Of a stretch of 64,000 nucleotides of DNA, positions 9,785 through 63,956 are shown piece by piece. This DNA comes from Oligoflexia bacterium (GTDB lineage: Bacteria > Bdellovibrionota > Bdellovibrionia > JABDDW01): the NCBI GenBank assembly GCA_020847095.1, contig JADLCR010000088.1, forward strand, positions 46,871 to 110,870. Reading direction: 5' to 3'. The notes under the pieces were generated by a model. The model was not told where the DNA came from. It searched no databases and was given only the letters and a program-made list of their open reading frames with translations. The first letter of the stretch is position 1. Each line of letters starts with the position of its first letter. Position numbers and translations under genes: made by a program.

Positions 9785-11500
9785 TTAGATGCTCAAGCTC
9801 TTGAGTTCACCCTTTTTAAAAGCAATGTAACCATCAAAAATCAGCTTACAAACTGTGACAGCGGTAAAGAGCGTTGTCACAATGCCGATGAGCAGGGTGA
9901 CAGCAAATCCCTTAATCGGACCTGTTCCAAACTGAAGCAAAATGATCGCGACAATGCCGTGGGTGATATTCGCGTCAAAAATACTGCTAAACGCTTTGTC
10001 AAATCCCGCCTCAATCGCGCGAGCCGGGCTCTTACCTTCTTGCAGCTCATCTCGAATTCGCTCAAAGATGATGACGTTACTATCAACAGCCATTCCAATT
10101 GTAAGCGCTAGGCCCGCAATTCCTGGCAATGTCAGTGTCGCATCTAGGCTCACAAGCGCTGCGAACGCAAAAAGTCCGTTGAGCATCAATGATAGAACGG
10201 CCACCAAACCACTGGCTCGATAGTAAAAGGACATAAAAATAAATATTAAGGCACAGCCCACAATTCCCGCTGTTAGCCCTTGGCGAATACTATCTTGCCC
10301 CAATGAGGGTCCGATAACCCGCTGCTCGACTAAATCGAGCTGAGCCGGCAAAGCCCCTGCTCGAAGAACAATGCTCAAATCCTTTGCTTCTTTCATCAAC
10401 TCTTCATGATTGCCTTGACCCAATGTAATCTGCCCATTGGTAGAAATTTCGCTTTGAATGACAGGAGCCGAATAGACGACATTATCCAAAACAATAGCTA
10501 ATCGCTTTTGCTTGTTTTCTCCCGTAACCTTTTTCATTGCCGCTGCACCGGCCGGATTCATTTGAAACTCGACAATGGGGCGACCGTAATCTTGATCGAT
10601 ATTCATACGAGCGTCTTGCAGATCGTTTCCAGTCACGTCGACTTTCTTGAAAAGCAAATACGGAACCCAGGTGGCAGGAACATTTGGGCCGGAGCCGCGA
10701 GAGGTTTTTTCAAACACAATCTCTGAGTCCTCAGGAATTTTTCCTTTTGCGAACTCATTAATTTTCTCGACGTACTCTGAAAACTTTTGTCCCTCTTTGT
10801 ATTGGACGCCATGATCTTTTTCAATTGAAGCCACTAACGCGGCGATTTGTCCGCCTTGCATGGCCGAATCATTGACGATTTTAAATTCTAACTTAGCCGT
10901 TCGACCAATAAGTTGTTTAGCACGCTCAATTTCTCGCACTCCCGGGAGCTCAACGACAACCCGCTTGCTCCCTTGGCTCGAAATCCCCGGCTCAGTCACA
11001 CCGAAAGTATCAATACGATTTCTGATAACTTCGATAGATTGTCGAACCGCATTGTCACGAATATCATTTCGATTGGTGAGGGTCAGTGCCAATTCCAACT
11101 CTCCGGCCTTCTCACCTAAGATGATCATATTCGGATAATAGTCTTTCAGTAGCGTCTTAATTTCACCCGTTTGCGCTGCTTCAAAAGTGAGAAACCCGCG
11201 TGGGTCATCTTCCTCGGAATAGGTCCCTAATCTCCATTGGCTCGGGAGTGCTTTACTTGTGGAAAGCACCTTAAGGGACTCTAGTTGGCGCTCCATGTTT
11301 TCCTTAAAGAGCTTTTTGATGTCAATTTCGAACACCATGTAGAGCCCACCTTGAAGATCGAGCCCTAAATTGACCTTCTTCTTGACGGGAAATTTTGATG
11401 TATCTGGATTCAAATTACTCAAAGTAGGATAAACGTACAAAACGCTTATCGTCGTGATGATCATCAAGATCCAAAACTTAGCCCACCAGATTCGCTTCAT
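9785..11500 (-). CDS. secD: protein translocase subunit SecD
   Basis: Length 571 aa. N-terminal TM, large periplasmic domain and C-terminal TM bundle, in the conserved yajC-secD-secF order. Confidence 0.9.
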   Translation of the reverse strand: MKRIWWAKFWILMIITTISVLYVYPTLSNLNPDTSKFPVKKKVNLGLDLQGGLYMVFEIDIKKLFKENMERQLESLKVLSTSKALPSQWRLGTYSEEDDPRGFLTFEAAQTGEIKTLLKDYYPNMIILGEKAGELELALTLTNRNDIRDNAVRQSIEVIRNRIDTFGVTEPGISSQGSKRVVVELPGVREIERAKQLIGRTAKLEFKIVNDSAMQGGQIAALVASIEKDHGVQYKEGQKFSEYVEKINEFAKGKIPEDSEIVFEKTSRGSGPNVPATWVPYLLFKKVDVTGNDLQDARMNIDQDYGRPIVEFQMNPAGAAAMKKVTGENKQKRLAIVLDNVVYSAPVIQSEISTNGQITLGQGNHEELMKEAKDLSIVLRAGALPAQLDLVEQRVIGPSLGQDSIRQGLTAGIVGCALIFIFMSFYYRASGLVAVLSLMLNGLFAFAALVSLDATLTLPGIAGLALTIGMAVDSNVIIFERIRDELQEGKSPARAIEAGFDKAFSSIFDANITHGIVAIILLQFGTGPIKGFAVTLLIGIVTTLFTAVTVCKLIFDGYIAFKKGELKSLSI

Positions 11501-11847
11501 GGATTCCCCTCTTTAGCAAGTCCCGCAATTTGTGATTTTAAAATTCGAATTCTAACATTGTCAGCGATTTGCAGTGTAACAACACGATCGGTTGTTCCTG
11601 CAACTTCACCCAAAATCCCGCCTGAAGTGATTACTTGATCACCGCGCTTGATCCCCTCTAGGAGCTTTTGATGTTCTTTTTGCTTCTTGCCCTGAGGCCG
11701 AATAATCAAGAAGTAGAAAATCACAAACATCGCGGCGATCGGAAATACCATCTCCAAGACGGACGGTTGAGCCGGGGTCACGGCGCCTTGTTGTGCCCAT
11801 GCAATTGAAATCATTTTGAAACTCCTCCAAAGCTTCGAAAGTCCCAT
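11497..11847 (-). CDS. yajC: preprotein translocase subunit YajC
   Basis: Small single-TM protein. Its stop overlaps the secD start, and it follows tgt as in the canonical operon. Confidence 0.85.
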   Translation of the reverse strand: MGLSKLWRSFKMISIAWAQQGAVTPAQPSVLEMVFPIAAMFVIFYFLIIRPQGKKQKEHQKLLEGIKRGDQVITSGGILGEVAGTTDRVVTLQIADNVRIRILKSQIAGLAKEGNP

Positions 11848-31078: not shown

Positions 31079-31579
31079 TCAGTTGGAACTTCTGAGATAA
31101 ATTGAGCCGCAAATTTCGGGTGCTGGGTTGAAAACGGTTTCAACGGTTTTAAACTGCGAAATATTATCATAAGCCTGCTTGACGCCGTCGGCATCACAAG
31201 AAAGATTTTGAGTAGAAGTTCGACAAGCTACTGCGGTAGAAAAACTCGGAACAATGCTTTCTGAAGCTTCCAAGGCAATGACTTCGCGAAAAGTGGGTTC
31301 GACTTCGTCACTAGCAACGACATATCCAAGCCGAGTGGAAACGGCATTTGAATTGAAGTAAGCCTCATAACATTCTGGCAGCCCCATTGCGGGATAACAT
31401 CGCTTCAACAAACCACATGCATCGGAAATCAAAGTTTCTCCGACCGTTTTTTCATTCAGAGGATTGCCCGTGCTCGTGCCGCGTCTTCGAAAAGCGTCAG
31501 GGTTTCCACAATTGCTATAGGCCACAAACAAAACAACGATAAAAATTAACGCTACAGCAATCTTTCCTACATTTTTCAT
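31079..31579 (-). CDS. hypothetical secreted Cys-rich protein
   Basis: Signal peptide. Eight Cys. Its start overlaps the upstream TIGR02147 gene stop (ATGA). Confidence 0.5.
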   Translation of the reverse strand: MKNVGKIAVALIFIVVLFVAYSNCGNPDAFRRRGTSTGNPLNEKTVGETLISDACGLLKRCYPAMGLPECYEAYFNSNAVSTRLGYVVASDEVEPTFREVIALEASESIVPSFSTAVACRTSTQNLSCDADGVKQAYDNISQFKTVETVFNPAPEICGSIYLRSSN

Positions 31580-32436
31580 TGTTTCAAATCTCCGTCTTCT
31601 GCATCGTCTGTCAGCGGGAATAGCTGAAAGTTAAGCTGATAAACGACTGTTGGTGACGGATCTTGTGCCATCACTTCCATAACCTCTTTTCGGAACCTTT
31701 GAACCATTTCCTTAACAGTCTTGGCTGTCCGAGCCGATATACCGACCGTTACAGAGCTAATTTCACGCTTATCTCTCGTAAAACGATCAATGGACTCCCC
31801 AGCTTTTTGAAGCATTTCTTTATGAAATTGAGCGATTGACGCCGAAGTCACTTCATCTTGGGTGGCGATATTTTGATGAGTTTGAAATAGCTTTCCCGTA
31901 GATGGGTCGCGGCCAATGAGGCCTAATTCGATGAGCTCATCAAGGGCCTTTTTGGCATCTGCTGGTGCGATATTTGGCTGAACCCTTTTAGCAATCCAAT
32001 TGGGATCTTCTTGAAATCCTTTAAGACCAACGAGCTCACGAATGGCCACAAAATACCAATGACGGAAATAGTTAAATTGCTGCTCTCTTAATGGGTGAAT
32101 ATTTCGATAAGATTTTGACCTCAATAACTGTTCGGCATGGAATTGCTTTTCGCCTGATGTTGTAGCCTGGCAAAAAAGCACAAGATGCCGAAAGAACTGG
32201 GTTTCTTCGCCAGTCATTGCGAGACTTTGAGCGCAGCGCTCAATACTGAGTTGAGACAGATTTCTTTGACCGTCCATCACGAGCTTAATAAAGTTTGGAG
32301 AAGTAAACCCAGCTGCTCTAGAAAAAGCTCTAAATGAAAAGCCTCCAGGTGCTGACTTCAGCTTCATATAAGCGTCCTTCAAAAAGGACCGGTAATCTTC
32401 ATAATCAAATACTCGAACTGGCGCTTTCGTAATCAT
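31576..32436 (-). CDS. TIGR02147/DUF4423-like putative HTH regulator
   Basis: N-terminal DYEDYRSFLKD...FSFRAFSRAAGFTSPNFIKLVMDGQRNLS resembles the TIGR02147 paralogous family, recalled from memory. Confidence 0.5.
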   Translation of the reverse strand: MITKAPVRVFDYEDYRSFLKDAYMKLKSAPGGFSFRAFSRAAGFTSPNFIKLVMDGQRNLSQLSIERCAQSLAMTGEETQFFRHLVLFCQATTSGEKQFHAEQLLRSKSYRNIHPLREQQFNYFRHWYFVAIRELVGLKGFQEDPNWIAKRVQPNIAPADAKKALDELIELGLIGRDPSTGKLFQTHQNIATQDEVTSASIAQFHKEMLQKAGESIDRFTRDKREISSVTVGISARTAKTVKEMVQRFRKEVMEVMAQDPSPTVVYQLNFQLFPLTDDAEDGDLKQ

Positions 32437-32563
32437 GGAATCATTATAACGCTTATAGTCACAAAGTCAACATATTTTGTATTCAATTAGAATATTTTTA
32501 ATAACATGATTTACAATAATAAGTTAATTATTTCAATGCGTTATATACATTTATTGTATACTG

Positions 32564-32591
32564 TTGACAAATATTGTCATTTTAGTAGAAT
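32564..32591 (+). promoter_or_regulatory. near-consensus sigma70 promoter (TTGACA-16-TAGAAT) overlapped by palindrome TGACAAATATTGTCA
   Basis: Lies in the 210-bp AT-rich divergent intergenic region. The -35 sits inside a perfect 6-3-6 inverted repeat. Confidence 0.45.
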
Positions 32592-32672
32592 ACTAATTAA
32601 GGCAGCACGTCTCTTTTGATTACAGTTAAAAGCTAATCCTTTTATTTGGACAGGAGTCCAAGAGGAGTACTT

Positions 32673-33602
32673 ATGAAGCGCTTACTATTAGCGTTGCTGA
32701 TTTCGAGCTCATTGGCAGGTTGCTCGGACTATAGCTTTGAGGATTCAAAGTCTCAGGCCCCAGCTCCAAACTCAGATCCTGGGGTTATCACCCAAGAGAC
32801 TCTGGGACTTCGTTATGACATTGAATTTGATCCCGTGAGATTGACGTCGCTCTCACCCCGAATCAGTACCGCAAACTCGAATGACGATATATATGGCGGC
32901 AAGCCATTTGTGCTTGGCTTTGCCACCGTAGACCCGATCGACACAAACCCGTTTAGCTTTCAAGGCCACGTGCTTGCGATTTATAGCCCAAAACTCATCA
33001 CTTCAAATGCGGATAGCACTCAAAGATGTGTGAGATTGGGTGAACAAGCAAGACTTGCGGGTCTAGGACTTAGAATTAGAGCCAACGTACAAATTAAGAT
33101 GAATCAAAAATTGAGACCTGAAGATCGGCTCAATGTTCATATGGTTACAATTCAGCGACTTGAATCTTGTGAGCTTAAACAAGTGCCCATTCCCCCACCT
33201 AAAGTGACAACGTTAGCCTTTGATCATATTAACGACATTCGTGGGCCCCTTGAACCCCCGTATCCCACTTTCGCAGCCGCTACCTATGGCGAAATTGAAG
33301 GGCATCTCTTTACTGGCCTACCCTACGTCGATAACGAGCTCGCAGGCCTTAAGGATTTATATGCGATCGCAAGATTTGATATGGTGGGCGAAAAAGGTCG
33401 GGATTGCTTTGCAAAAGCAAAAAGGGCAAAAAATTCTGGCGGCTTGTTTTCGATTTCCGGAATAGCCCAACAATTAAGATCGCAACCCATCTTATACTTT
33501 GCACCTTGTACGGACAGATACTGCCCTCAAGAATATCGAATTTATGTATTTGATTCTTCAGCTACTTGTAACGTGGAGTTCCCAATCGTCGTTCCCCAAT
33601 AA
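32673..33602 (+). CDS. hypothetical lipoprotein
   Basis: Start MKRLLLALLISSSLAGCSD (lipobox). The ORF track begins upstream at 32646. Confidence 0.6.
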   Translation: MKRLLLALLISSSLAGCSDYSFEDSKSQAPAPNSDPGVITQETLGLRYDIEFDPVRLTSLSPRISTANSNDDIYGGKPFVLGFATVDPIDTNPFSFQGHVLAIYSPKLITSNADSTQRCVRLGEQARLAGLGLRIRANVQIKMNQKLRPEDRLNVHMVTIQRLESCELKQVPIPPPKVTTLAFDHINDIRGPLEPPYPTFAAATYGEIEGHLFTGLPYVDNELAGLKDLYAIARFDMVGEKGRDCFAKAKRAKNSGGLFSISGIAQQLRSQPILYFAPCTDRYCPQEYRIYVFDSSATCNVEFPIVVPQ

Positions 33603-33624: not shown

Positions 33625-33656
33625 AAAAGGCGGCTCTTAGGAGTCGCCTTTTTTTT
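33625..33656. terminator. bidirectional rho-independent terminator
   Basis: aaaaGGCGGCTC-ttag-GAGTCGCCtttttttt between convergent genes. Confidence 0.55.
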
Positions 33657-33990
33657 GAATTTCGATTTCAGCCGTAACTTTGAATTTGTGATTTTCGGCA
33701 AACTTGGATGCTTCCTTAACAATATCAATTTTGCTTAAGATTGTTCCTATTTCCTTACTCACTCTTCCAACTAATTCTTCTTTACCTTTATTAGCGCTTT
33801 GTATGACAAAACCCAGAACATCTTTAGGAAGCTTCACTTCGCCTAAATACTGTCGAATACTTTCTTCGGTCAGAAATGCGGCACTTAACCCTACCGAAAA
33901 CAATTTCTTAACTGTTTCCAGCACGGGGCCCGATTGCTTTTCTTCAAATTCTACGTTTGGATCGTTATTCTCTTTGTCATCCTTTGACAT
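33637..33990 (-). CDS. hypothetical protein
   Basis: Acidic, helical 117-aa ORF. Its stop lies in the terminator loop. Confidence 0.4.
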   Translation of the reverse strand: MSKDDKENNDPNVEFEEKQSGPVLETVKKLFSVGLSAAFLTEESIRQYLGEVKLPKDVLGFVIQSANKGKEELVGRVSKEIGTILSKIDIVKEASKFAENHKFKVTAEIEIQKKGDS

Positions 33991-36736: not shown

Positions 36737-38303
36737 TGAGTTCGCGCACTCGCCCTAGTCCGGGGGGACTTATTTTGGGCTGCAGCTTAAGATGGTTCAA
36801 AATCAATTCTCGAATATCGGGACCAACTCGCCAACGAGGAAAGGGACAATCGGAGATCTCAAAAAACTCCTCACAATGTGTGGCCACGTAGTGGGGCATG
36901 GCAATTTTGATGGGATCTCGATTTCCCGATAGAAAAACCGAAATTCTTGGATTTTGTTTTAGTCCAGTCATTCTGATTGAGCCCGGTGAAACTCCAAACC
37001 CAATCATTGTTGTTTTAGCCCACTCTCTCTGAAGAGCCCGATCAAACATGGCCTCAAATTGAGCGCGCTTCATTGTTACATCTACCAACTCGCCCGGATA
37101 TGGCAAAGCCATCAGCAAATTTTCCTTGTCCACAGTCCCTTTTTGAATTTCTTCACGTAACATTTGGCGATTAATAAATGAAAAATCCGTTTTCGCCGAC
37201 TTACGAATAATATCGGCAACCCAGTTGTGAAGTGTCCCCTCTTTTGGATTTTGGGAATTAATGAGCGACAACTGCCCCATGGCTTCGGCAATCGGTTTTC
37301 GAGCCTCTGGCGCCCATTTGTTGTAATGACTTTCGATGAGTTGCGCAATTTCTACATCTGCGAGTTGATTGAGCACCGGCCCAACCGCCCAATGCGAAAA
37401 CTCAGACTGCACCACGGTCTTTTTATTAACATCATAGTCCAAATGCACAACACCGATTTGCCTGCCGTATTCTCCAGCCTCGACAACCAAGCCTTTGCCC
37501 GTGAGTTTTTGTTCTGGAGATAAAATGTGAGAGTGCCCACCTAAAACCAAGTCTAACTCGGGAAATTTCGAAGCGAGGCGATCGTTCAATGAGTGATCCA
37601 AATGAGCCGCCAAAACAAGAATATCAACTTGCGGCCTTAATTCTTTTATGAGCTTTGGTAGCACTTCTTCGGCTTGAAGAATTCGAAAGGGAGCGCCAAC
37701 TCCTTTTGACTGATCTTTAGCCTCAATTTCGAAAGAGTGCGTGAGTCCGATAAAGCCAATTTTGACACCCAAGCGGCGGACAACAACATAAGGATCGAAC
37801 GGCCTCTTCCCGTCTTTATCGACCAAATTGGCCGAAATGAGCGGAGCAGGTTCATATTTTTTTGCCCAAGAAAAAAGATTATCGAGCCCGATTTTCACTT
37901 CATTATTGCCCACAACCCTGAAGTTAAAGGCAGGCAATTTGGAAACAATTTCTGCCATGGTTTCGTCATTGCTCAATTGAGCGGGCTGACTTCCTTTTTT
38001 ATACATATCTCCGACATCAATTAAAATGGCGTCCGGGTCCCCCTCTCGAATTACTTTTAGGGTGGTTGCCAAATAAGCAAGGCCCCCTCTTCCGTTTCGA
38101 CTGGGCATATAGTGCGAGTGGATATCGTTTGTATGAAATATTTTAATAACCCTAATCGGATCGGTTGATTTTTGTGATGATGAGCATCCAAGAACTAGTG
38201 AAAGAACTAGAAACCAAAGAAAAAACCGAATAGGGTGAATCATGACTTCGATATCATCACAGAGTTTGCCTTTTTGGAAGAGGCAGCTACCAAACATCAT
38301 CAC
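36729..38303 (-). CDS. 5'-nucleotidase/metallophosphoesterase family lipoprotein
   Basis: Calcineurin-like motifs HTNDIHSHY and GNNE plus a C-terminal 5'-nucleotidase domain. A probable lipoprotein start at the internal Met (38243). Confidence 0.8.
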   Translation of the reverse strand: MMMFGSCLFQKGKLCDDIEVMIHPIRFFLWFLVLSLVLGCSSSQKSTDPIRVIKIFHTNDIHSHYMPSRNGRGGLAYLATTLKVIREGDPDAILIDVGDMYKKGSQPAQLSNDETMAEIVSKLPAFNFRVVGNNEVKIGLDNLFSWAKKYEPAPLISANLVDKDGKRPFDPYVVVRRLGVKIGFIGLTHSFEIEAKDQSKGVGAPFRILQAEEVLPKLIKELRPQVDILVLAAHLDHSLNDRLASKFPELDLVLGGHSHILSPEQKLTGKGLVVEAGEYGRQIGVVHLDYDVNKKTVVQSEFSHWAVGPVLNQLADVEIAQLIESHYNKWAPEARKPIAEAMGQLSLINSQNPKEGTLHNWVADIIRKSAKTDFSFINRQMLREEIQKGTVDKENLLMALPYPGELVDVTMKRAQFEAMFDRALQREWAKTTMIGFGVSPGSIRMTGLKQNPRISVFLSGNRDPIKIAMPHYVATHCEEFFEISDCPFPRWRVGPDIRELILNHLKLQPKISPPGLGRVRELND

Positions 38304-38826
38304 AGGATTGCGCGCCTTTTTTGTGCTTCCCGTAGTAGCGCTGTTGATGACTGATTCATACTGGCCGAACTTTTGGGCGACCGGGCTTTTTATCGTGGCC
38401 TCGGTAAGCGACTATTTTGATGGTTATTTCGCGAGAATTTACAAAATCGAATCGATTTTCGGAAAATTTTTAGATCCCGTAGCTGATAAGCTTTTGGTTA
38501 ACGGTGCGTTGATCATGCTCATCCCGTTGGGCCGAGTGCACCCCATTTTGGTTTTTCTTATACTATCTAGGGACATCTTTATTAACGGGCTTAGGGCCGT
38601 AGCCGCTTCAGAAAATCTTGTCATTGGGGCGGGGTGGACCGGCAAGTGGAAAACGGGCACGCAAATGACGGCCATTCCTTGCATTATGCTAAAGGAACCA
38701 CTTTTTGGGGTTGTCCCCATATTAGAAATAGGACAGGTCCTTTTGTGGGTGAGCTTTGGATTGAGCGCCATTTCTGGGGTCCAATACGCTCTGTATTTCT
38801 TTAAGAAATCTCGCTACATGCGCTGA
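38242..38826 (+). CDS. pgsA: CDP-diacylglycerol--glycerol-3-phosphate 3-phosphatidyltransferase
   Basis: CDP-alcohol phosphatidyltransferase motif DYFDGYFAR...GKFLDPVADK. Confidence 0.8.
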   Translation: MTSISSQSLPFWKRQLPNIITGLRAFFVLPVVALLMTDSYWPNFWATGLFIVASVSDYFDGYFARIYKIESIFGKFLDPVADKLLVNGALIMLIPLGRVHPILVFLILSRDIFINGLRAVAASENLVIGAGWTGKWKTGTQMTAIPCIMLKEPLFGVVPILEIGQVLLWVSFGLSAISGVQYALYFFKKSRYMR

Positions 38827-38887: not shown

Positions 38888-38964
38888 GCGGGTTTAGCTC
38901 AGTTGGCTAGAGCGGTACCTTGCCAAGGTACAGGTCGAGGGTTCGAGCCCCTTAACCCGCTCCA
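38888..38964 (+). tRNA. tRNA-Gly (anticodon GCC)
   Basis: Hand-folded cloverleaf: acceptor GCGGGTT/AACCCGC, D-stem GCTC/GAGC, anticodon stem GTACC/GGTAC with loop TTGCCAA, T-loop TTCGAGC, and an encoded CCA. Confidence 0.93.
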
Positions 38965-38976
38965 TTTCAGAAAATA

Positions 38977-39010
38977 AAAAGGCTACCCAAAGGGTGGCCT
39001 TTCTTGTTTT
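38977..39010 (+). terminator. rho-independent terminator after tRNA-Gly
   Basis: ggctaccc-aaa-gggtggcc followed by tttcttgtttt. Confidence 0.5.
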
Positions 39011-39161
39011 CTGAGTTGAGGTTAAGGGGCGAGAAGGGAAAATTCGGCCGCGATAAGCACGACATTAGGAGTGCCTATGGCGGCAAATCAAGCACGAAGC
39101 TAGATTTAGAATTTTCCGGGAGGCTACGCAGGAGTGAGCGTGACGCGAACGACGTAGTAGC

Positions 39162-39185
39162 CGAGCCCCTTAACCCGCTCCATTT
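39162..39185 (+). repeat. 24-bp direct repeat of the tRNA-Gly 3' end (att-like remnant)
   Basis: cgagccccttaacccgctccattt is identical to 38943..38966 (T-loop through acceptor plus 3 nt). Confidence 0.8.
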
Positions 39186-39240
39186 ATAAACTCCAAAAAC
39201 TGCTCCAAATAGTTCACTGACCAACCGATAAGCCACTGGC

Positions 39241-39942
39241 ATGCTGGACAAATTCGCACTAACTAGACTTTCAGCCATTCTCTTGTCTCTGCTTCTGGCT
39301 CAAGCGAGCTTTGCCGATAAAATCTGCCAACCATCTGAAGTACAGCTCATTCTAAGGCAACTGATAGATTCAATTGGCCCACATACAAAAGCGACCGTTC
39401 CGATAAAGACTTGCCCCCATTGCTCAGACTCCCTTTATTTGGGTAAAAACGGAAGAGCCCATTCCGAACCCCATTTCATGAACGCTTATTCAGGTCACGC
39501 GTCACTTGAGAGTCAACTTGGAGAAAAGGCTCGCGACGGATTGTCGACTACGGTTTTCTCACCTGAAATCAGCGTTGACGATGTTATAGATTCTCTCAAA
39601 AAACCTTCGTCTTTTAAACTCAGTCGACGCGACCATGACCTTTTAAATTCGCTACCAAAAAACTTAGATGACGCTGACAAGGTGATTTCTGCAGGAGGAG
39701 GCAAAATTGCGTTTGAGGCTGAAGTACTGATCAAAGGCGAAACTTACCAAGTGCGAGTGGTTTCGTGTCAGGCGGACCAATGTGTTGATGGACTTCAGAG
39801 GAGCTACTCAAAAGGAGAGATTATTTCGCTTATTCCCATTTGCGGGCCCTCGGGATTTAAAGTAATTTCAAGAAGATCCGGAGCTAAGGTTGTGCCGCTC
39901 AAAAGTTGCAACTCTGATGCTGGGATCTCAATTTCCCATTGA
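39241..39942 (+). CDS. hypothetical secreted Cys-rich protein
   Basis: Signal peptide. Multiple Cys. No known motif. Confidence 0.5.
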   Translation: MLDKFALTRLSAILLSLLLAQASFADKICQPSEVQLILRQLIDSIGPHTKATVPIKTCPHCSDSLYLGKNGRAHSEPHFMNAYSGHASLESQLGEKARDGLSTTVFSPEISVDDVIDSLKKPSSFKLSRRDHDLLNSLPKNLDDADKVISAGGGKIAFEAEVLIKGETYQVRVVSCQADQCVDGLQRSYSKGEIISLIPICGPSGFKVISRRSGAKVVPLKSCNSDAGISISH

Positions 39943-40048: not shown

Positions 40049-40981
40049 ATGAAACTAATATCAGTTTTGGCTTTGGGGCTTATTGCTTTTGAATTGTCGA
40101 ACGCTGAGGCCCAAGGCATCCGAGGTCAACAGCAAGTTCAACCTCAGCAGTCGCGTCGTCCAGCAGCGATGGAGCCCGATATGGATGAATCTGATGAAGG
40201 GACACCATCACCTGGTGCCAACAGGTCAACTAGCCCTGGAGCTGTTCCGTCACCCTATCGATACTCACTTGGCTATGAATCCTCAACTACGGGAATCATG
40301 GCGCAGAACTATATCGTTGGGGGCAAATGGCTGAGTTCCAACTTTGGAATTGATATTTATTTTGGCTTCACTAAATCTGCCGACACGACGGCCACGTCAG
40401 TAGCAACATCTACAAATGCTTTGACCAATGCTCGCACCATCACGACAACCTATTCGGGTTCGGCAAATCCAAACGTATTTACCTTGGCCGCTTTTCCAAA
40501 GTGGAAGCTATTTCGAAACAACTGGCTTTTCGTATTTGGTGGTCCTTTTGCCGGGGTCAATTATTTAACCAAAGTTGAATATCCAAATGGCGGAAACACC
40601 GTCGAAACAATCCCTAATGCCAATGACCCTACTAACAAGTCCGTAGTCGACACCAGTATCGGGACGACGACAATCGAATCCCGAATGCATATTGTTGCCG
40701 GACCCCGTATTGGAGCGGAAATTTTTCTCAAATGGTTCCCCCAAATTTCAGTGGGTATGGCCACCGGAATCGCCACAACCATTGGGGCAGATACAAAACA
40801 AAAAACATCGACTCGTTCACGGACGTATAATGTGGTTAACGGCGTAGATCAGGCTCCTACCGCAGATTCCAACGCGGTCACTGAAACAACGACTAAGCCG
40901 GGGATTTCATCTTCTACGTTTGGGTTGGGCGGAACTCAATTCAATCTCTTTGGAAATTTCACGATCAGATATTACTGGTAA
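40049..40981 (+). CDS. hypothetical secreted protein, possible outer-membrane beta-barrel
   Basis: Signal peptide, Thr/Ser-rich, C-terminal ...RYYW. Confidence 0.5.
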   Translation: MKLISVLALGLIAFELSNAEAQGIRGQQQVQPQQSRRPAAMEPDMDESDEGTPSPGANRSTSPGAVPSPYRYSLGYESSTTGIMAQNYIVGGKWLSSNFGIDIYFGFTKSADTTATSVATSTNALTNARTITTTYSGSANPNVFTLAAFPKWKLFRNNWLFVFGGPFAGVNYLTKVEYPNGGNTVETIPNANDPTNKSVVDTSIGTTTIESRMHIVAGPRIGAEIFLKWFPQISVGMATGIATTIGADTKQKTSTRSRTYNVVNGVDQAPTADSNAVTETTTKPGISSSTFGLGGTQFNLFGNFTIRYYW

Positions 40982-62063: not shown

Positions 62064-63206
62064 TTAGACGTAAACGCCTTTTTTGATTTTTTCTACAATG
62101 ATCTTCTCGGGCATGATTGGATCTCGTGGATTTACAGTGAATAGGGCTTGCTGTTCGCAACGTCTCTTATTTTTCAGCAACCACTTAAGAATTTCCGAGA
62201 CCTCTTTATTTTTCTTATCTTTAAAGAAAGGGTCATTTTTAAGTGCGTCGTCGGCTTTCTTAAGCGCTCGCACCTCTTGAATGTCGTTTTCTTTGACTGG
62301 GTAATCACTGAGATCATACTTCTTGATGTCTTCAGGTAACACGCCCAAAAAGCGAACTTCTGGAGCCGAAAAATCTGAATTTCTAATCAAGCTCGAGGCA
62401 GATCCGGCTTTCAACGTTCGATAAATATTCTGCATGGTGTACGCGTCAAGATCTCCGAAAAAATAAATTGGAATCCGCAGCTCTTCTTGAATCAATCTCG
62501 ACCAACCGCGAACAGCATTACTAGGCACCCCTTGGGCACCCATTAAGATGGCATTGTTGCGCTTACAAAAGCCATTAGCCACCAATGTATTTGCGGTACC
62601 CTCAGATTCAACGATTAGACAAAAATCGATTTTCTTCTTGGCCTTGAGTTTCAAACTCTGTGGGCGATTCTTCGGCTGAAATGGCGTCGTCCCTAAGGTA
62701 CTTAAGTCGACGACCGCTTTGTCGCCATCTGGAAGCGTCTCTGTAACAACCAACTGTTGCGAATAGGTTTGACCGCCTCGATCATTGGCATAGCAATTGA
62801 GATCTTCGCGGTAACACTCCATCATCTCGCAAATAAAATCGATAATAGAATCACTCTCATCTTGGTCGGCGAAATCCAATGGTTTCAATTCGGGGTTATG
62901 TTTAATTTCACCTTTAGAAATGTAGTACAACTCTCTTTTGGTGTTCACAGCTCCGGTCTCAATGTTTCGAAGCAGGATCTCTAGCATAAAAATCGCCCGA
63001 GACATTTTTTGGACCGACGAAACATTCAGTTCCGTTCGGACCTTCTTCGGGCCGGGTGTTAGGTAGCCGCGTTTAAAATCATAGCGGCTGTTGTCGAGAG
63101 AGCACTTAGTTGCTTCAAGAACAGGCCTTCGAGCGTTTTCTAAATCGCGCAAAAGCATTGTGCAAAGTTCTTTAGATACCTTAACGACGTGTTCACCACG
63201 AGCCAT
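62064..63206 (-). CDS. top6A: type IIB DNA topoisomerase VI subunit A (Spo11/Top6A family)
   Basis: Catalytic-Tyr motif TKRELYYIS in the 5Y-CAP region. Toprim Glu LIVESEG and DxD YFFGDLD. Length 380 aa. Confidence 0.85.
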   Translation of the reverse strand: MARGEHVVKVSKELCTMLLRDLENARRPVLEATKCSLDNSRYDFKRGYLTPGPKKVRTELNVSSVQKMSRAIFMLEILLRNIETGAVNTKRELYYISKGEIKHNPELKPLDFADQDESDSIIDFICEMMECYREDLNCYANDRGGQTYSQQLVVTETLPDGDKAVVDLSTLGTTPFQPKNRPQSLKLKAKKKIDFCLIVESEGTANTLVANGFCKRNNAILMGAQGVPSNAVRGWSRLIQEELRIPIYFFGDLDAYTMQNIYRTLKAGSASSLIRNSDFSAPEVRFLGVLPEDIKKYDLSDYPVKENDIQEVRALKKADDALKNDPFFKDKKNKEVSEILKWLLKNKRRCEQQALFTVNPRDPIMPEKIIVEKIKKGVYV

Positions 63207-63218
63207 GATTCACTCCTC

Positions 63219-63956
63219 TTACGCGCTTTTCTCAGCTTGTTTTGATTTTTTCTTTGATGTGGAAACTTTTTTACCAACAGCCTTTTTGGCGACCTTTTTG
63301 GCGGCTTTTTTGCCGGTGGGCTTAGTTTCTACGACTTCGGCATTTTCATCCGCCTCAGTCGGAAGCTCTTGGGCCTCATCGCCTGATTCACCTAAGATCT
63401 TCTTTTGCTTAGCCGCAAGCTCTTCTTTCCCGATCATTGCAACTTTCAGCTCTTTTTCGGCCTCTCGACTTTCTCTACCCAAAAGCTTCATCAAACCTTC
63501 GGTAGCTTTCTTTTTACGAGCTTCGGGAGCCCCTAAGATGCGACAAACCCCGCCCACTAGAATTGGGCCAAATTGCTCGATATGCCGAATCTTGTTTTCC
63601 AAGTCGATAGCCCGGGCTTCTGCTCTTATATGTCTCGATAATTTTTGACCTGCCTGTATTAACGCCAGTCTTAGCTCATCAACAAGTTCATCTGAAGCAT
63701 CCACGGTCTCTTTAGATGCATTTTTAAACTTAATAAAGGGCGACACCAAACTCACGGCAATGACATATGGGCCTAAAGGCAACGAATCTTTCGGCTGTCC
63801 CAGCCCATAGGTTTTCCAATTAACACTTTCAATGGCCTTCACTATGGCACATCCGGATTTATCGAACTGAAGAGGAACCCGATTCGCAAAGCGAAGAACC
63901 TGCACAGAAGAATCAGAATGTTCTTGGCTCCGTTCTTGTAGCCTCGCCACGGCCAC
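63219..63956 (-). CDS. top6B: DNA topoisomerase VI subunit B, C-terminal transducer domain plus Lys/Ala-rich tail; N-terminal part not in this ORF
   Basis: VQVLRFANRVPLQFDKSGCAIVKAI...NWKTYGL matches the Top6B transducer region. The ORF begins at GTG. An in-frame stop lies at 63972-63974. The N-terminal GHKL/H2TH part must be upstream and in another frame. Confidence 0.72.
   Translation of the reverse strand: MAVARLQERSQEHSDSSVQVLRFANRVPLQFDKSGCAIVKAIESVNWKTYGLGQPKDSLPLGPYVIAVSLVSPFIKFKNASKETVDASDELVDELRLALIQAGQKLSRHIRAEARAIDLENKIRHIEQFGPILVGGVCRILGAPEARKKKATEGLMKLLGRESREAEKELKVAMIGKEELAAKQKKILGESGDEAQELPTEADENAEVVETKPTGKKAAKKVAKKAVGKKVSTSKKKSKQAEKSA

What the first reader, a model, noticed from the sequence alone, without database searches (positions are those of the whole stretch)
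38943..39185. 24-bp duplication of the tRNA-Gly 3' end about 200 bp downstream: integrative-element att remnant at the edge of an accessory zone
The tRNA-Gly 3' segment cgagccccttaacccgctccattt (38943..38966) recurs exactly at 39162..39185.

Direct repeats of a tRNA 3' end are the signature of tyrosine-integrase-mediated insertion (attL/attR). Here only about 195 bp lie between the copies and no integrase is present. That suggests a decayed or mostly deleted island, or tandem att sites.

Downstream of the second copy, 39.2..48.4 kb reads as accessory: secreted hypotheticals, an S8 protease, the effector-like module, a methyltransferase and HiPIP copies.
Basis: seen in the sequence. Interest (0 to 1): 0.55.

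Follow-up and report, generated by a model that had tools for sequence, protein, structure and literature searches.

The report
Tiny gene-less att-flanked element at tRNA-Gly
The last 21 bases of a glycine tRNA gene (plus 3 more) are repeated exactly 218 bp downstream, bracketing a small non-coding, hairpin-forming DNA module that is best read as the footprint of a gene-less integrating element; this is a modest curiosity, not a new biological system.

Summary
The repeat is real. CGAGCCCCTTAACCCGCTCCATTT occurs at 38944-38967 (one base right of the stated start) and at 39162-39185, with 0 matches expected by chance. It runs from the T-loop of tRNA-Gly(GCC) through CCA plus 3 nt, the classic shape of a tRNA att core.

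None of the window ORFs scanned against Pfam (nearly all of those >=150 aa) hits a recombinase family, and there is no third core copy. Copy 2 is not a decayed tRNA.

The 194-bp spacer is not random debris. It holds the tRNA terminator, an inverted partial copy of the core, and two hairpins. The inverted copy pairs with copy 2 in a 16-bp stem (RNA fold z = -6.8).

A distant Oligoflexia MAG (PgsA 46% identical) has the same layout, built from its own tRNA variant, with the same T-loop boundary and the same AGC junction. A third genome has a collapsed hairpin. The closest relative (82%, identical tRNA end) and at least seven other lineages lack it.

Synteny is conserved upstream and lost in every relative exactly at the tRNA, but 39-48 kb is not compositionally foreign.

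Best reading: a compact, integrase-less, att-flanked mini-element, similar to a cis-mobilizable element (confidence 0.5). A structured tRNA-trailer RNA is not excluded.

The parts
38242..38826 (+). pgsA-like CDP-alcohol phosphatidyltransferase. It is the last gene of the conserved syntenic block and the anchor used to fetch relatives.
   Evidence: PF01066, E = 4e-38. Orthologs lie upstream of tRNA-Gly in L001-L005, L044, L046, L135 and L141.
38888..38964 (+). tRNA-Gly(GCC), complete, with encoded CCA.
   Evidence: ARAGORN; Rfam RF00005, 66.7 bits.
38944..38967 (+). Direct-repeat copy 1: tRNA positions 56-76 plus TTT. On the integration model this is the attL-type core.
38967..39014 (+). Intrinsic terminator of the tRNA (core stem 38978-39002, then a T-rich tail), extended into a long imperfect palindrome.
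   Evidence: Terminator scan; inverted repeat I6.
39013..39035 (+). Inverted partial copy of the core (GAGTTGAGGTTAAGGGGCGAGAA). It forms the 5' strand of stem P1. It contains the 12-mer AAGGGGCGAGAA, which is the reverse complement of the tRNA segment TTCGAGCCCCTT with the central TC changed to GA.
   Evidence: Inverted repeats I3 and I12; fold. The motif sits at the same relative position in L001 and L005. Its 11-nt exact inverted run is the longest among all tRNAs surveyed.
39037..39117 (+). P2: a branched hairpin domain closed by GGAAAATTC/GAATTTTCC. It is the variable interior of the element.
   Evidence: Minimum-free-energy and centroid structures. Not alignable with L005.
39122..39162 (+). 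P3: a hairpin (GGCTAC...GTAGCC with an inner GCG-TGA-CGC hairpin) ending in the AGC|C junction with copy 2. This is the conserved right end of the element.
   Evidence: Fold. Similarity to L005 anchored at the junction: 15/2000 shuffles and 2/2000 genomic segments score as high. Pairs are kept, with 3 double changes, in the 2-sequence alignment fold.
39162..39185 (+). Direct-repeat copy 2 (attR-type core). Bases 39165-39180 form the 3' strand of the 16-bp stem P1.
39241..39942 (+). First ORF downstream (233 aa). It is an ORFan and marks the start of the lineage-specific region. It is context, not shown to belong to the element.
   Evidence: Only a self-hit among 5.8e9 proteins. No Pfam, PHROG or NCBIfam hit. 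Unrelated to the 233-aa ORF at the same position in L044.

Best explanation
The repeat is the pair of att cores left by site-specific recombination into the T-loop and 3' half of tRNA-Gly(GCC). Copy 1 completes the working tRNA, and copy 2 is a non-functional 3' fragment.

What the cores bracket is a defined, gene-less mini-element of about 190-220 bp, not a randomly eroded island. It consists of little more than the two ends of an integrative element:
- a left end that supplies the tRNA 3' end, a terminator and an inverted copy of the core;
- a right-end hairpin that stops at an AGC|C junction in the T-loop.

This makes it a miniature counterpart of a cis-mobilizable element (CIME). It would have been made, and could only be moved, by a tyrosine-type integrase encoded elsewhere. 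The tRNA is a recombination hotspot at which each lineage has acquired a different downstream region.

Shown: the repeat, its boundaries, the self-complementary architecture, its recurrence in a distant genome built from that genome's own tRNA sequence, its patchy distribution, and the synteny break.

Inferred: involvement of a recombinase, mobility, and that the conserved ends are att arms.
For: - The repeat starts inside the T-loop (C56), runs through CCA and continues 3 nt beyond the mature tRNA. In L005 it continues 6 nt beyond (TTTTTC). That is identity at the DNA level, not mimicry of the mature RNA.
- L005 (PgsA 46% identical) has the same layout. Its 27-nt repeat matches its own tRNA variant (A59, G67). 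The left boundary at C56 is the same, AGC precedes copy 2 in both, and the inverted-core 12-mer also tracks its own tRNA (AAGGGGT vs AAGGGGC).
- The 50 nt abutting copy 2 are more alike in W (the window's element) and L005 than chance: 15/2000 shuffles and 2/2000 genomic segments score as high. The interiors are unalignable. Conserved ends with a free interior is the pattern expected of recombination-site arms.
- Dehalococcoides ssrA islands show the same pattern: a conserved element motif directly upstream of each direct repeat, a mid-T-loop insertion point, and 15 att-flanked units without an integration module, interpreted as CIMEs (PMC3146451). The CIME definition is (PMC5704250).
- Distribution is patchy. 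The full element is in W and L005 and a collapsed form is in L001. It is absent from L044/L045 (82%, identical tRNA 3' end), L046, L135, L141 and L002-L004. Only 2 of 22 tRNA-Gly(GCC) loci have the repeat.
- The repeats are perfect in W and L005, but the L001 hairpin no longer matches its own tRNA. This fits recent events in W and L005 and an older one in L001, rather than one ancient conserved structure.
- Collinearity with relatives (about 25-38.8 kb) ends exactly at the tRNA, and nothing downstream matches in any relative. Downstream genes are orphans here. In relatives they are TA or defence-type genes: Fic/HTH in L046, Zeta/ParD in the P0018 contig, AbiEi-like in L001.
- The element is richer in GC than its host in both genomes: 53% vs about 45%, and 72% vs 57%.
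- Two independent MAG assemblies show the same architecture, which argues against an assembly artefact.
Against: - No integrase or other recombinase was found among the ORFs scanned in the 64-kb window, in 3.4 kb downstream in L005, or in 10 kb downstream in L001.
- No autonomous relative or attP was found. The core has 0 exact hits in IMG/VR. The second-copy form (core not preceded by the T-loop T) has 0 hits in JGI metagenome contigs. Phage and plasmid BLAST gave only terminator noise or nothing.
- The flank after copy 1 (terminator plus inverted motif) resembles the tRNA flank of relatives that lack the repeat: L001 0/1000 shuffles, L044 33/1000. The flank after copy 2 shows no convincing match, its best being a marginal 16/1000 to L001 at a very low raw score. 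Simple integration predicts the ancestral flank after copy 2. The model survives only if those relatives also keep an element-derived left end.
- No true empty site with the same right flank could be found.
- The very stable fold (z = -6.8) and kept pairs in P3 are more typical of a structured RNA or a hairpin DNA substrate than of duplex att arms.
- Only two full examples exist, and overall spacer homology is not significant.
- 39-48 kb has ordinary GC, GC3 and tetranucleotide usage.
Confidence: 0.5

Rival explanations
1. The module is a functional structured RNA linked to the tRNA gene: a roughly 170-nt trailer or independent RNA. Its closing helix pairs an anti-tRNA segment with a copy of the tRNA 3' half. 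It might switch between pairing with the real tRNA 3' end and with the decoy copy, or present a tRNA-like minihelix end to processing enzymes. The repeat would then be kept identical to the tRNA by selection.
For: - The fold is very stable: -78.4 kcal/mol, z = -6.8, 0/200 shuffles. The + strand is favoured over the - strand (-70.5 kcal/mol).
- The element is GC-enriched relative to the genome, as structured RNAs are.
- The inverted motif and copy 2 change together between W and L005 (C:G to T:A).
- The P3 hairpin keeps its pairs, with three double changes.
- The 12-mer motif is as conserved as the tRNA itself across W, L001 and L005, and occurs only at this position.
- In the fold of the whole transcript, the 5' arm can pair with either copy.
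- The E. coli tyrT trailer repeats (RtT RNA) are a precedent for tRNA 3'-end copies in a trailer (own knowledge).
Against: - An intrinsic terminator lies between the tRNA and the module, and no promoter-like site was found on either strand.
- The L005 version folds only marginally better than shuffles (z = -2.1), and its complementary segments are arranged differently.
- Identity extends beyond the mature tRNA end by 3 nt in W and 6 nt in L005, which RNA mimicry does not require.
- The module is absent from the closest relative and from most lineages.
- In L001 the hairpin does not track its own tRNA.
- There is no Rfam match of any kind, RtT included.
- With n = 2, covariation cannot be assessed statistically.
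Confidence: 0.2
2. This is the reader's literal version: an ordinary large island or prophage integrated here and was then almost entirely deleted by random deletions. The result is two att cores 194 bp apart, with 39.2-48.4 kb possibly a further decayed island.
For: - The repeat has an att-core shape.
- Synteny breaks at the tRNA and the genes downstream are orphans.
- Partial tRNA genes normally arise from integration of mobile elements (PMC9897764).
Against: - Random deletion does not explain why two very distant lineages keep the same parts at similar sizes: spacers of 194 and 159 bp, the same motif 56-65 nt after the tRNA, and the same right-end hairpin and AGC junction.
- It does not explain why the remnant is so strongly self-complementary.
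- No third core copy bounds 39.2-48.4 kb, even with 3 mismatches.
- That zone shows no compositional anomaly and no phage- or integration-type genes.
Confidence: 0.13
3. The feature arose locally with no mobile element involved. One route is a former tandem pair of tRNA-Gly genes in which the second lost its 5' two-thirds. The other is replication template-switching around the terminator quasi-palindrome, which created the inverted and direct copies.
For: - In W, and roughly in L001, the inverted copy lies symmetrically about the terminator loop. Positions 38944-39035 form one long quasi-palindrome, the kind of substrate on which template-switch mutations act (own knowledge).
- The L003 terminator stem also copies the acceptor stem.
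- The flank after copy 1 looks ancestral.
Against: - Copy 2 is a perfect 24-nt copy that includes TCCATTT, for which the imperfect inverted arm provides no template. It therefore cannot have been copied from that arm.
- Nothing upstream of C56 at copy 2 resembles a tRNA.
- The identical C56 boundary and AGC junction in L005, together with repeats matching each genome's own tRNA, would need either an ancient event plus continual homogenisation or two identical accidents.
- In L005 the motif is not symmetric about a hairpin.
Confidence: 0.12
4. The repeat is a chance match or an assembly artefact of a metagenome-assembled genome.
For: The source is a MAG, and conserved tRNA sequences can cause chimeric joins.
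Against: - 0 of 100 shuffles give even one extra match.
- The 194-bp spacer is unique sequence with no internal repeat that could create a graph loop.
- An independent MAG from another study (L005) has the same architecture.
Confidence: 0.03

Closest known systems
Cis-mobilizable elements (CIMEs) of Firmicutes ICE/IME systems (reviewed in PMC5704250)
   Same: [quoted passage not shown] It sits at the 3' end of a target gene, can serve as a landing pad for further elements, and depends on an integrase supplied by another element.
   Different: No related autonomous element or integrase is known here. This module has no genes at all and is only about 0.2 kb. It is dominated by a long hairpin built from an inverted copy of the core. 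Mobility is untested.
Dehalococcoides ssrA genomic islands without an integration module (PMC3146451)
   Same: [quoted passage not shown] A conserved element-derived motif lies immediately upstream of each repeat. Some att-flanked units lack a recombinase. The repeats sit in a highly variable region downstream of the target gene.
   Different: Those units are arranged in tandem and carry genes (rdhA and others), and use a serine recombinase encoded in sister islands. Here there is a single gene-less ~200-bp unit and no known recombinase.
Partial tRNA genes (attR fragments) left by integrated phages or ICEs (PMC9897764; Williams 2002 sublocation classes, own knowledge)
   Same: [quoted passage not shown]
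   Different: The cases described in that paper span about 9-23 kb of integrated DNA. Here the two copies are 194 bp apart and nothing is encoded between them.
E. coli tyrT operon trailer repeats / RtT RNA (Rfam RF00391; own knowledge)
   Same: A copy of the tRNA 3' end lies about 200 nt downstream of the tRNA, within non-coding trailer sequence.
   Different: There is no Rfam match. There is one unit, not a tandem array. A terminator separates it from the tRNA. The taxon is unrelated. An inverted core copy and a long closing helix are present here.
Folded single-strand recombination sites: integron attC and the CTX-phage attP hairpin (own knowledge)
   Same: Two imperfect inverted copies of a recombination core pair into a stem with extrahelical bases and a variable, sometimes branched, terminal structure. 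Structure is conserved rather than sequence. An inverted site pair lies next to the distal direct repeat.
   Different: There is no IntI or Xer context, the target is a tRNA T-loop, and there is no cassette or phage genome. The resemblance is purely architectural and no test of single-strand recombination was possible.
MITEs (miniature inverted-repeat transposable elements)
   Same: About 170 bp, terminal inverted repeats, a strong hairpin and no coding capacity.
   Different: No second copy was found in the window or in 1.17 Mb of related loci. The 'terminal repeat' is the tRNA's own 3' end. The flanking duplication is 24-27 bp, far longer than any transposase target-site duplication.

Membership tests
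tRNA att duplication made by integrase-mediated integration (attL/attR) | A direct repeat identical to the tRNA 3' part, starting in the anticodon loop or T-loop and reaching or passing the 3' end. | tested here: met
   24 nt from C56 through CCA plus TTT, exact, with 0 expected by chance. The boundary is the same in L005.
tRNA att duplication made by integrase-mediated integration (attL/attR) | An integrase gene between or next to the repeats. | tested here: not met
   No recombinase family hit among the window ORFs scanned (nearly all >=150 aa). None in the L005 or L001 downstream flanks.
tRNA att duplication made by integrase-mediated integration (attL/attR) | Occupied and empty sites among related genomes. 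| tested here: inconclusive
   The second copy is absent in L044/L045 (identical tRNA end) and in 20 of 22 tRNA-Gly(GCC) loci. No relative shares the right flank, so a true empty site is lacking.
tRNA att duplication made by integrase-mediated integration (attL/attR) | The ancestral downstream flank follows the distal copy. | tested here: inconclusive
   The copy-1 flank resembles the L001 flank (0/1000) and the L044 flank (33/1000). The copy-2 flank has no convincing match, its best being 16/1000 to L001 at a low raw score. The L005 vs L003 flanks are not significant.
tRNA att duplication made by integrase-mediated integration (attL/attR) | The inserted DNA is compositionally foreign. | tested here: inconclusive
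   Spacer GC is 53% against about 45% for the genome, but the spacer is short and structured. 39-48 kb is not distinct.
Cis-mobilizable element (CIME) | attL and attR retained, integration and transfer genes lost. | tested here: met
   Two perfect cores, with no gene between them.
Cis-mobilizable element (CIME) | A recognisable relationship to an autonomous ICE, IME or prophage that uses the same att site. | tested here: not met
   0 hits for the core in IMG/VR and 0 for the second-copy form in JGI metagenome contigs. Phage and plasmid BLAST found only terminator noise or nothing. The search space was limited.
Cis-mobilizable element (CIME) | Excision or mobilisation by a helper integrase. | not testable with these tools
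   Needs reads or experiments.
Second, degenerate tRNA gene | tRNA-model similarity or cloverleaf remnants upstream of the repeated 3' end. | tested here: not met
   Only one tRNA by ARAGORN and Rfam, even at E <= 10. Sequence upstream of C56 at copy 2 is unrelated to the tRNA.
RtT RNA / tyrT-type trailer repeats (RF00391) | A match to the family model, with tandem units each ending in the tRNA 3' end. | tested here: not met
   No RF00391 hit at E <= 10. There is a single unit only.
Hairpin-type recombination site (attC / CTX attP-like) | Imperfect inverted core copies that fold into a stem with bulged bases and a variable terminal structure. | tested here: met
   A 16-bp stem with two single-base bulges encloses a 134-nt branched domain. 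Single-stranded DNA fold z = -5.3.
Hairpin-type recombination site (attC / CTX attP-like) | A cognate recombinase (IntI or XerCD-type) and cassette or phage context. | tested here: not met
   No recombinase hit among the window ORFs scanned.
MITE | Multiple dispersed copies and a short target-site duplication. | tested here: not met
   No other copy in the window or in 1.17 Mb of loci. The duplication is 24-27 nt. The rest of the genome was not available.

The most novel reading that the evidence does not exclude
The module represents an undescribed class of tRNA-linked hairpin elements in Oligoflexia/Bdellovibrionota. A copy of the tRNA 3' half and its complement fold into a duplex that mimics the tRNA gene's T-arm and acceptor segment. 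It would work in one of two ways:
- as a folded single-strand att site, like integron attC or the CTX-phage attP, but aimed at a tRNA T-loop;
- as an RNA that toggles between pairing with the real tRNA 3' end and with its decoy copy.
Probability: 0.15. Interest if true: 0.7.

Novelty: new variant of a known kind. Interest (0 to 1): 0.35.

Why it matters
If the reading is right, tRNA-Gly(GCC) next to pgsA is a recombination hotspot in an uncultured Oligoflexia lineage. The locus then supplies the exact core, crossover boundary (T55|C56) and arm sequences needed to look for the responsible integrase in these poorly known predatory-type bacteria.

A 0.2-kb unit consisting only of att ends would be about the smallest natural att-flanked element I am aware of. 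It would be a useful caution for island finders and tRNA annotators, which expect kilobases and an integrase between a tRNA and its fragment.

The recurrence of a strongly folded module in two distant genomes leaves open a more interesting function as an RNA or a hairpin-DNA substrate. As it stands, the finding is a well-characterised oddity and not a new system.

Tried and rejected
- Second or degenerate tRNA, tmRNA, or any Rfam family: rejected.
- Protein-coding. A 61-aa ORF (39004-39189) spans the element. It starts at a TTG inside the terminator stem. The matching frame in L005 has upstream stops, and the only shared peptide comes from the tRNA-derived core. Rejected.
- Overall homology of the W and L005 spacers. 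My impression by eye did not survive a shuffle test (score 27 vs mean 28). Only the junction-anchored right end and the 12-mer hold up.
- L005 copy-2 flank vs the L003 tRNA flank as an empty-site match. They look alike by eye, but the similarity is not significant once the shared TTTTTC is removed.
- Empty-site search through the right-flank genes. ORF 39241-39942 is an ORFan, and the two homologues of ORF 40049-40981 are not next to a tRNA.
- Apparent strain polymorphism among L135, L136 and L138. It is one sequence with different gene calls.
- Collection scans for second copies or attP gave 0 hits in viral contigs and 0 in metagenome contigs.
- The PgsA-alignment scan of metagenomes returned mostly distant relatives, useful only as background.
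- Phage and plasmid BLAST hit only the terminator hairpin or nothing.
- Profile searches with both element ends over 1.17 Mb found no further members.
- Guide-RNA idea (scaffold plus 3' guide matching the tRNA, as in TnpB/Cas12k homing). No such nuclease was found among the ORFs scanned, and the 'guide' is buried in a 16-bp helix. Dropped.
- Compositional island at 39.2-48.4 kb: not supported.
- Phage-like content there: only generic protease, peptidase and transglycosylase hits.
Full report
OBSERVATION

The 24-mer CGAGCCCCTTAACCCGCTCCATTT occurs exactly twice in the window, at 38944-38967 and 39162-39185. No further match appears at up to 3 mismatches, and 100 dinucleotide shuffles give none.

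ARAGORN and Rfam place one tRNA in the window, tRNA-Gly(GCC), at 38888-38964. The repeat therefore runs from T-loop position C56 through the encoded CCA and 3 nt beyond. The copies are 194 bp apart.

The upstream gene is a pgsA-type CDP-alcohol phosphatidyltransferase.

WHAT LIES BETWEEN THE COPIES

The spacer is organised. In order it contains:
- an intrinsic terminator for the tRNA (stem 38978-39002, T-rich tail), extended into a longer palindrome (38967-39014, I6);
- an inverted partial copy of the core (39013-39035), with an exact 11-bp complement, GGTTAAGGGGC against GCCCCTTAACC (I3 and I12);
- a branched hairpin domain, P2 (39037-39117);
- a hairpin, P3 (39122-39162), whose last base is the first base of copy 2.

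Folded as RNA, 39010-39185 gives -78.4 kcal/mol with z = -6.8 (0/200 shuffles). The inverted copy and copy 2 form a 16-bp closing stem with two single-base bulges. The opposite strand (-70.5 kcal/mol, z = -5.8) and single-stranded DNA (z = -5.3) also fold well.

The inverted copy can pair equally with copy 1 across the terminator. In a fold of the whole tRNA-to-copy-2 transcript, the tRNA 5' part is predicted to pair with copy 2. That is a prediction only.

Other readings of the spacer fail:
- Rfam finds nothing but the tRNA, even at E <= 10.
- No promoter-like site is present on either strand.
- A 61-aa ORF spans the module but is not credible as a gene.
- Sequence upstream of C56 at copy 2 has no similarity to the tRNA, so copy 2 is not a decayed second tRNA.

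WHO ELSE HAS IT

The window comes from an Oligoflexia MAG: its PgsA is 100% identical to an NCBI MAG protein on a 126.7-kb contig. GTDB representatives reach only 59% PgsA identity.

Among loci anchored on PgsA, the gene order pgsA then tRNA-Gly(GCC) is common. Across 131 sources (the window and 130 fetched loci), only two of 22 tRNA-Gly(GCC) genes have a downstream duplicate of their 3' end: the window and L005 (repeated on 143 sources).

L005 is a different MAG from a different study, and its PgsA is only 46% identical. Its repeat is 27 nt (CGAACCCCTTAGCCCGCTCCATTTTTC, at 11421-11447 and 11607-11633, spacer 159 bp) and matches its own tRNA variant (A59, G67). It starts at the same T-loop base and is preceded by the same AGC. 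It is accompanied by the same 12-mer, AAGGGG(C/T)GAGAA, 56-65 nt after the tRNA, which is the reverse complement of each genome's own TTCGA(G/A)CCCCTT with the central TC changed to GA.

L001 (59%) has the terminator plus a collapsed hairpin, GAGGTGATGGGGCGAGAAAAAGAGCCCCACC, at the same place and no intact second copy.

That 10-mer occurs four times in about 0.76 Mb of fetched sequence. Three of those are at this position and on this strand.

The module is absent from:
- the nearest relative L044/L045 (82%, identical tRNA 3' end);
- L046/L047;
- L135/136/138;
- L141;
- L002-L004.

HOW ALIKE ARE THE TWO FULL COPIES

Less alike than they first looked. A free local alignment of the two spacers is no better than shuffles (27 vs 28 +/- 5).

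The 50 nt abutting copy 2 are similar when the alignment is anchored at the junction: 15/2000 dinucleotide shuffles and 2/2000 random genomic segments reach the observed score. In a two-sequence alignment fold, the P3 hairpin keeps its pairs with three double changes. With n = 2 that is only suggestive.

L005 folds only marginally better than shuffles (z = -2.1), and its complementary segments are ordered differently.

Both modules are GC-richer than their hosts: 53% vs about 45%, and 72% vs 57%.

The picture is conserved ends and junction, a free interior, and self-complementarity.

SURROUNDINGS

The window is collinear with relatives from about 25 kb to pgsA. None of the relatives' genes downstream of the tRNA has a match anywhere in the window. 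The 233-aa ORFs that follow the tRNA in the window and in L044 are unrelated.

ORF 39241-39942 has no homologue other than itself in 5.8e9 proteins, and ORF 40049-40981 has two distant ones, neither near a tRNA.

Downstream content in relatives is also variable and partly of TA or defence type.

However, 39.2-48.4 kb has ordinary GC. Its tetranucleotide distance is only marginally at the top of the range, and GC3 does not differ significantly (p = 0.15). It encodes secreted-hydrolase-type proteins and orphans, with no phage or integration functions, and it is not closed by a third core copy.

No integrase, recombinase or transposase family is hit among the window ORFs scanned, which include nearly all of those >=150 aa, or in the available flanks of L005 and L001.

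Scans for the core or for second-copy junctions found nothing in IMG/VR or in JGI metagenome contigs. Phage and plasmid BLAST hit only the terminator or nothing.

INTERPRETATION

The shape of the repeat is what site-specific integration into a tRNA gene produces. It begins in the T-loop, covers the whole 3' end, and extends beyond the mature RNA by 3 nt here and 6 nt in L005. The identical C56 boundary and AGC junction in two distant genomes point to one kind of recombination event, not to accidents.

The Dehalococcoides ssrA islands are a close precedent. They show a mid-T-loop insertion point, a conserved element motif immediately upstream of every direct repeat, and many att-flanked units without an integration module, read as cis-mobilizable elements (PMC3146451; definition, PMC5704250). 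Partial tRNA genes are in general attributed to such integrations, although the described cases span kilobases (PMC9897764).

Four observations fit recurrent, fairly recent events at a hotspot better than a single ancient conserved structure:
- the patchy distribution;
- absence from the nearest relative;
- perfect repeats in W and L005, but a hairpin in L001 that no longer matches its own tRNA;
- the synteny break at the tRNA.

I therefore favour a compact, gene-less, att-flanked mini-element that is essentially the two ends of an integrative element (confidence 0.5).

I keep that as a rival at 0.13.

WHAT DOES NOT FIT

No recombinase and no autonomous relative was found.

The flank after copy 1 (terminator plus inverted motif) is the one that resembles the tRNA flank of relatives lacking the repeat: L001 0/1000, L044 33/1000. 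The flank after copy 2 shows no convincing match. Simple integration predicts the opposite. It can be reconciled only if the left-end module, which now supplies the tRNA's 3' end and terminator, persists in those relatives after loss of the right end.

The extreme foldability and the paired inverted core are not expected of duplex att arms. They recall structured RNAs, or hairpin recombination substrates such as integron attC and the CTX-phage attP. A functional tRNA-trailer RNA (0.2) and a purely local origin by template switching or decay of a tandem tRNA (0.12) therefore remain open.

The local-origin rival is weakened because the perfect 24-nt copy 2 includes TCCATTT, for which the imperfect inverted arm offers no template.

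An artefact is unlikely because two independent assemblies agree (0.03).

VERDICT

The att-type origin is plausible and partly supported. The 'decayed island' and 'edge of an accessory island' parts are not demonstrated.

The feature is best filed as a new small variant of a known kind: integrase-less att-flanked elements at tRNA genes. A minority possibility is that it is something more interesting, such as a hairpin att module or a tRNA-linked RNA.

Interest: 0.35.

Noticed in passing
window 31079-33602: A ~2.5-kb stretch (ORFs 31079-31579; 31576-32436, DUF4423; 32646-33602, no family) with a GC dip to 0.41-0.42. It is missing from the otherwise collinear relatives L001, L046, L131 and L135, which go straight from the HD-domain gene to the homologue of 33637-33990. 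It is a lineage-specific insertion inside the conserved block.
   Followed up: partly
window 62064-63956 (- strand): Adjacent genes for topoisomerase VI subunit A (TP6A_N plus Toprim) and a Topo VI B transducer domain in a bacterial (Oligoflexia) MAG.
   Followed up: no
window 39241-39942 and 40049-40981: The two ORFs right after copy 2 are near-orphans. The first has no homologue but itself in 5.8e9 proteins. The second has only two distant homologues (45% and 40%) in unrelated contexts.
   Followed up: yes
L003 1097-1120: The terminator that follows tRNA-Gly in this relative has a stem, AACCCGC/GCGGGTT, identical to the tRNA acceptor stem. It gives a 9-nt inverted match to the tRNA 3' end and may be a miniature or decayed version of the same theme.
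   Followed up: partly
L136 ~1927-1990 / L138 ~1136-1200: A tRNA-like fragment (GGTTAGAACGCTGCTCATTTTAAAGAGCAGAGGTCGCGAAGTTCAAACCCC) about 270 nt downstream of tRNA-Gly, not called by ARAGORN. It may be a decayed tRNA or an att fragment of another tRNA.
   Followed up: no
L046 10615-12096; L005 10721-11311; L004 10582-11142: In some lineages a gene has been inserted between pgsA and tRNA-Gly: a 422-aa hypothetical in L046, and a cobalamin adenosyltransferase in L005 and L004. The pgsA side of the tRNA is therefore not fully fixed either.
   Followed up: no
L001 11550-12566; L046 12266-15581; P0018 contig (no DNA held): Downstream of tRNA-Gly, several relatives carry defence or toxin-antitoxin-type genes: AbiEi/HATPase-DUF4325, HTH_3 plus Fic, and Zeta toxin plus ParD-like. 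None has an integrase within reach.
   Followed up: partly
window 39004-39189 (+): A 61-aa ORF exactly spans the element and stops just after copy 2. An 8-codon mini-ORF with a good AGGAG-ATG signal sits at 39066-39101. Neither is conserved in L005.
   Followed up: yes
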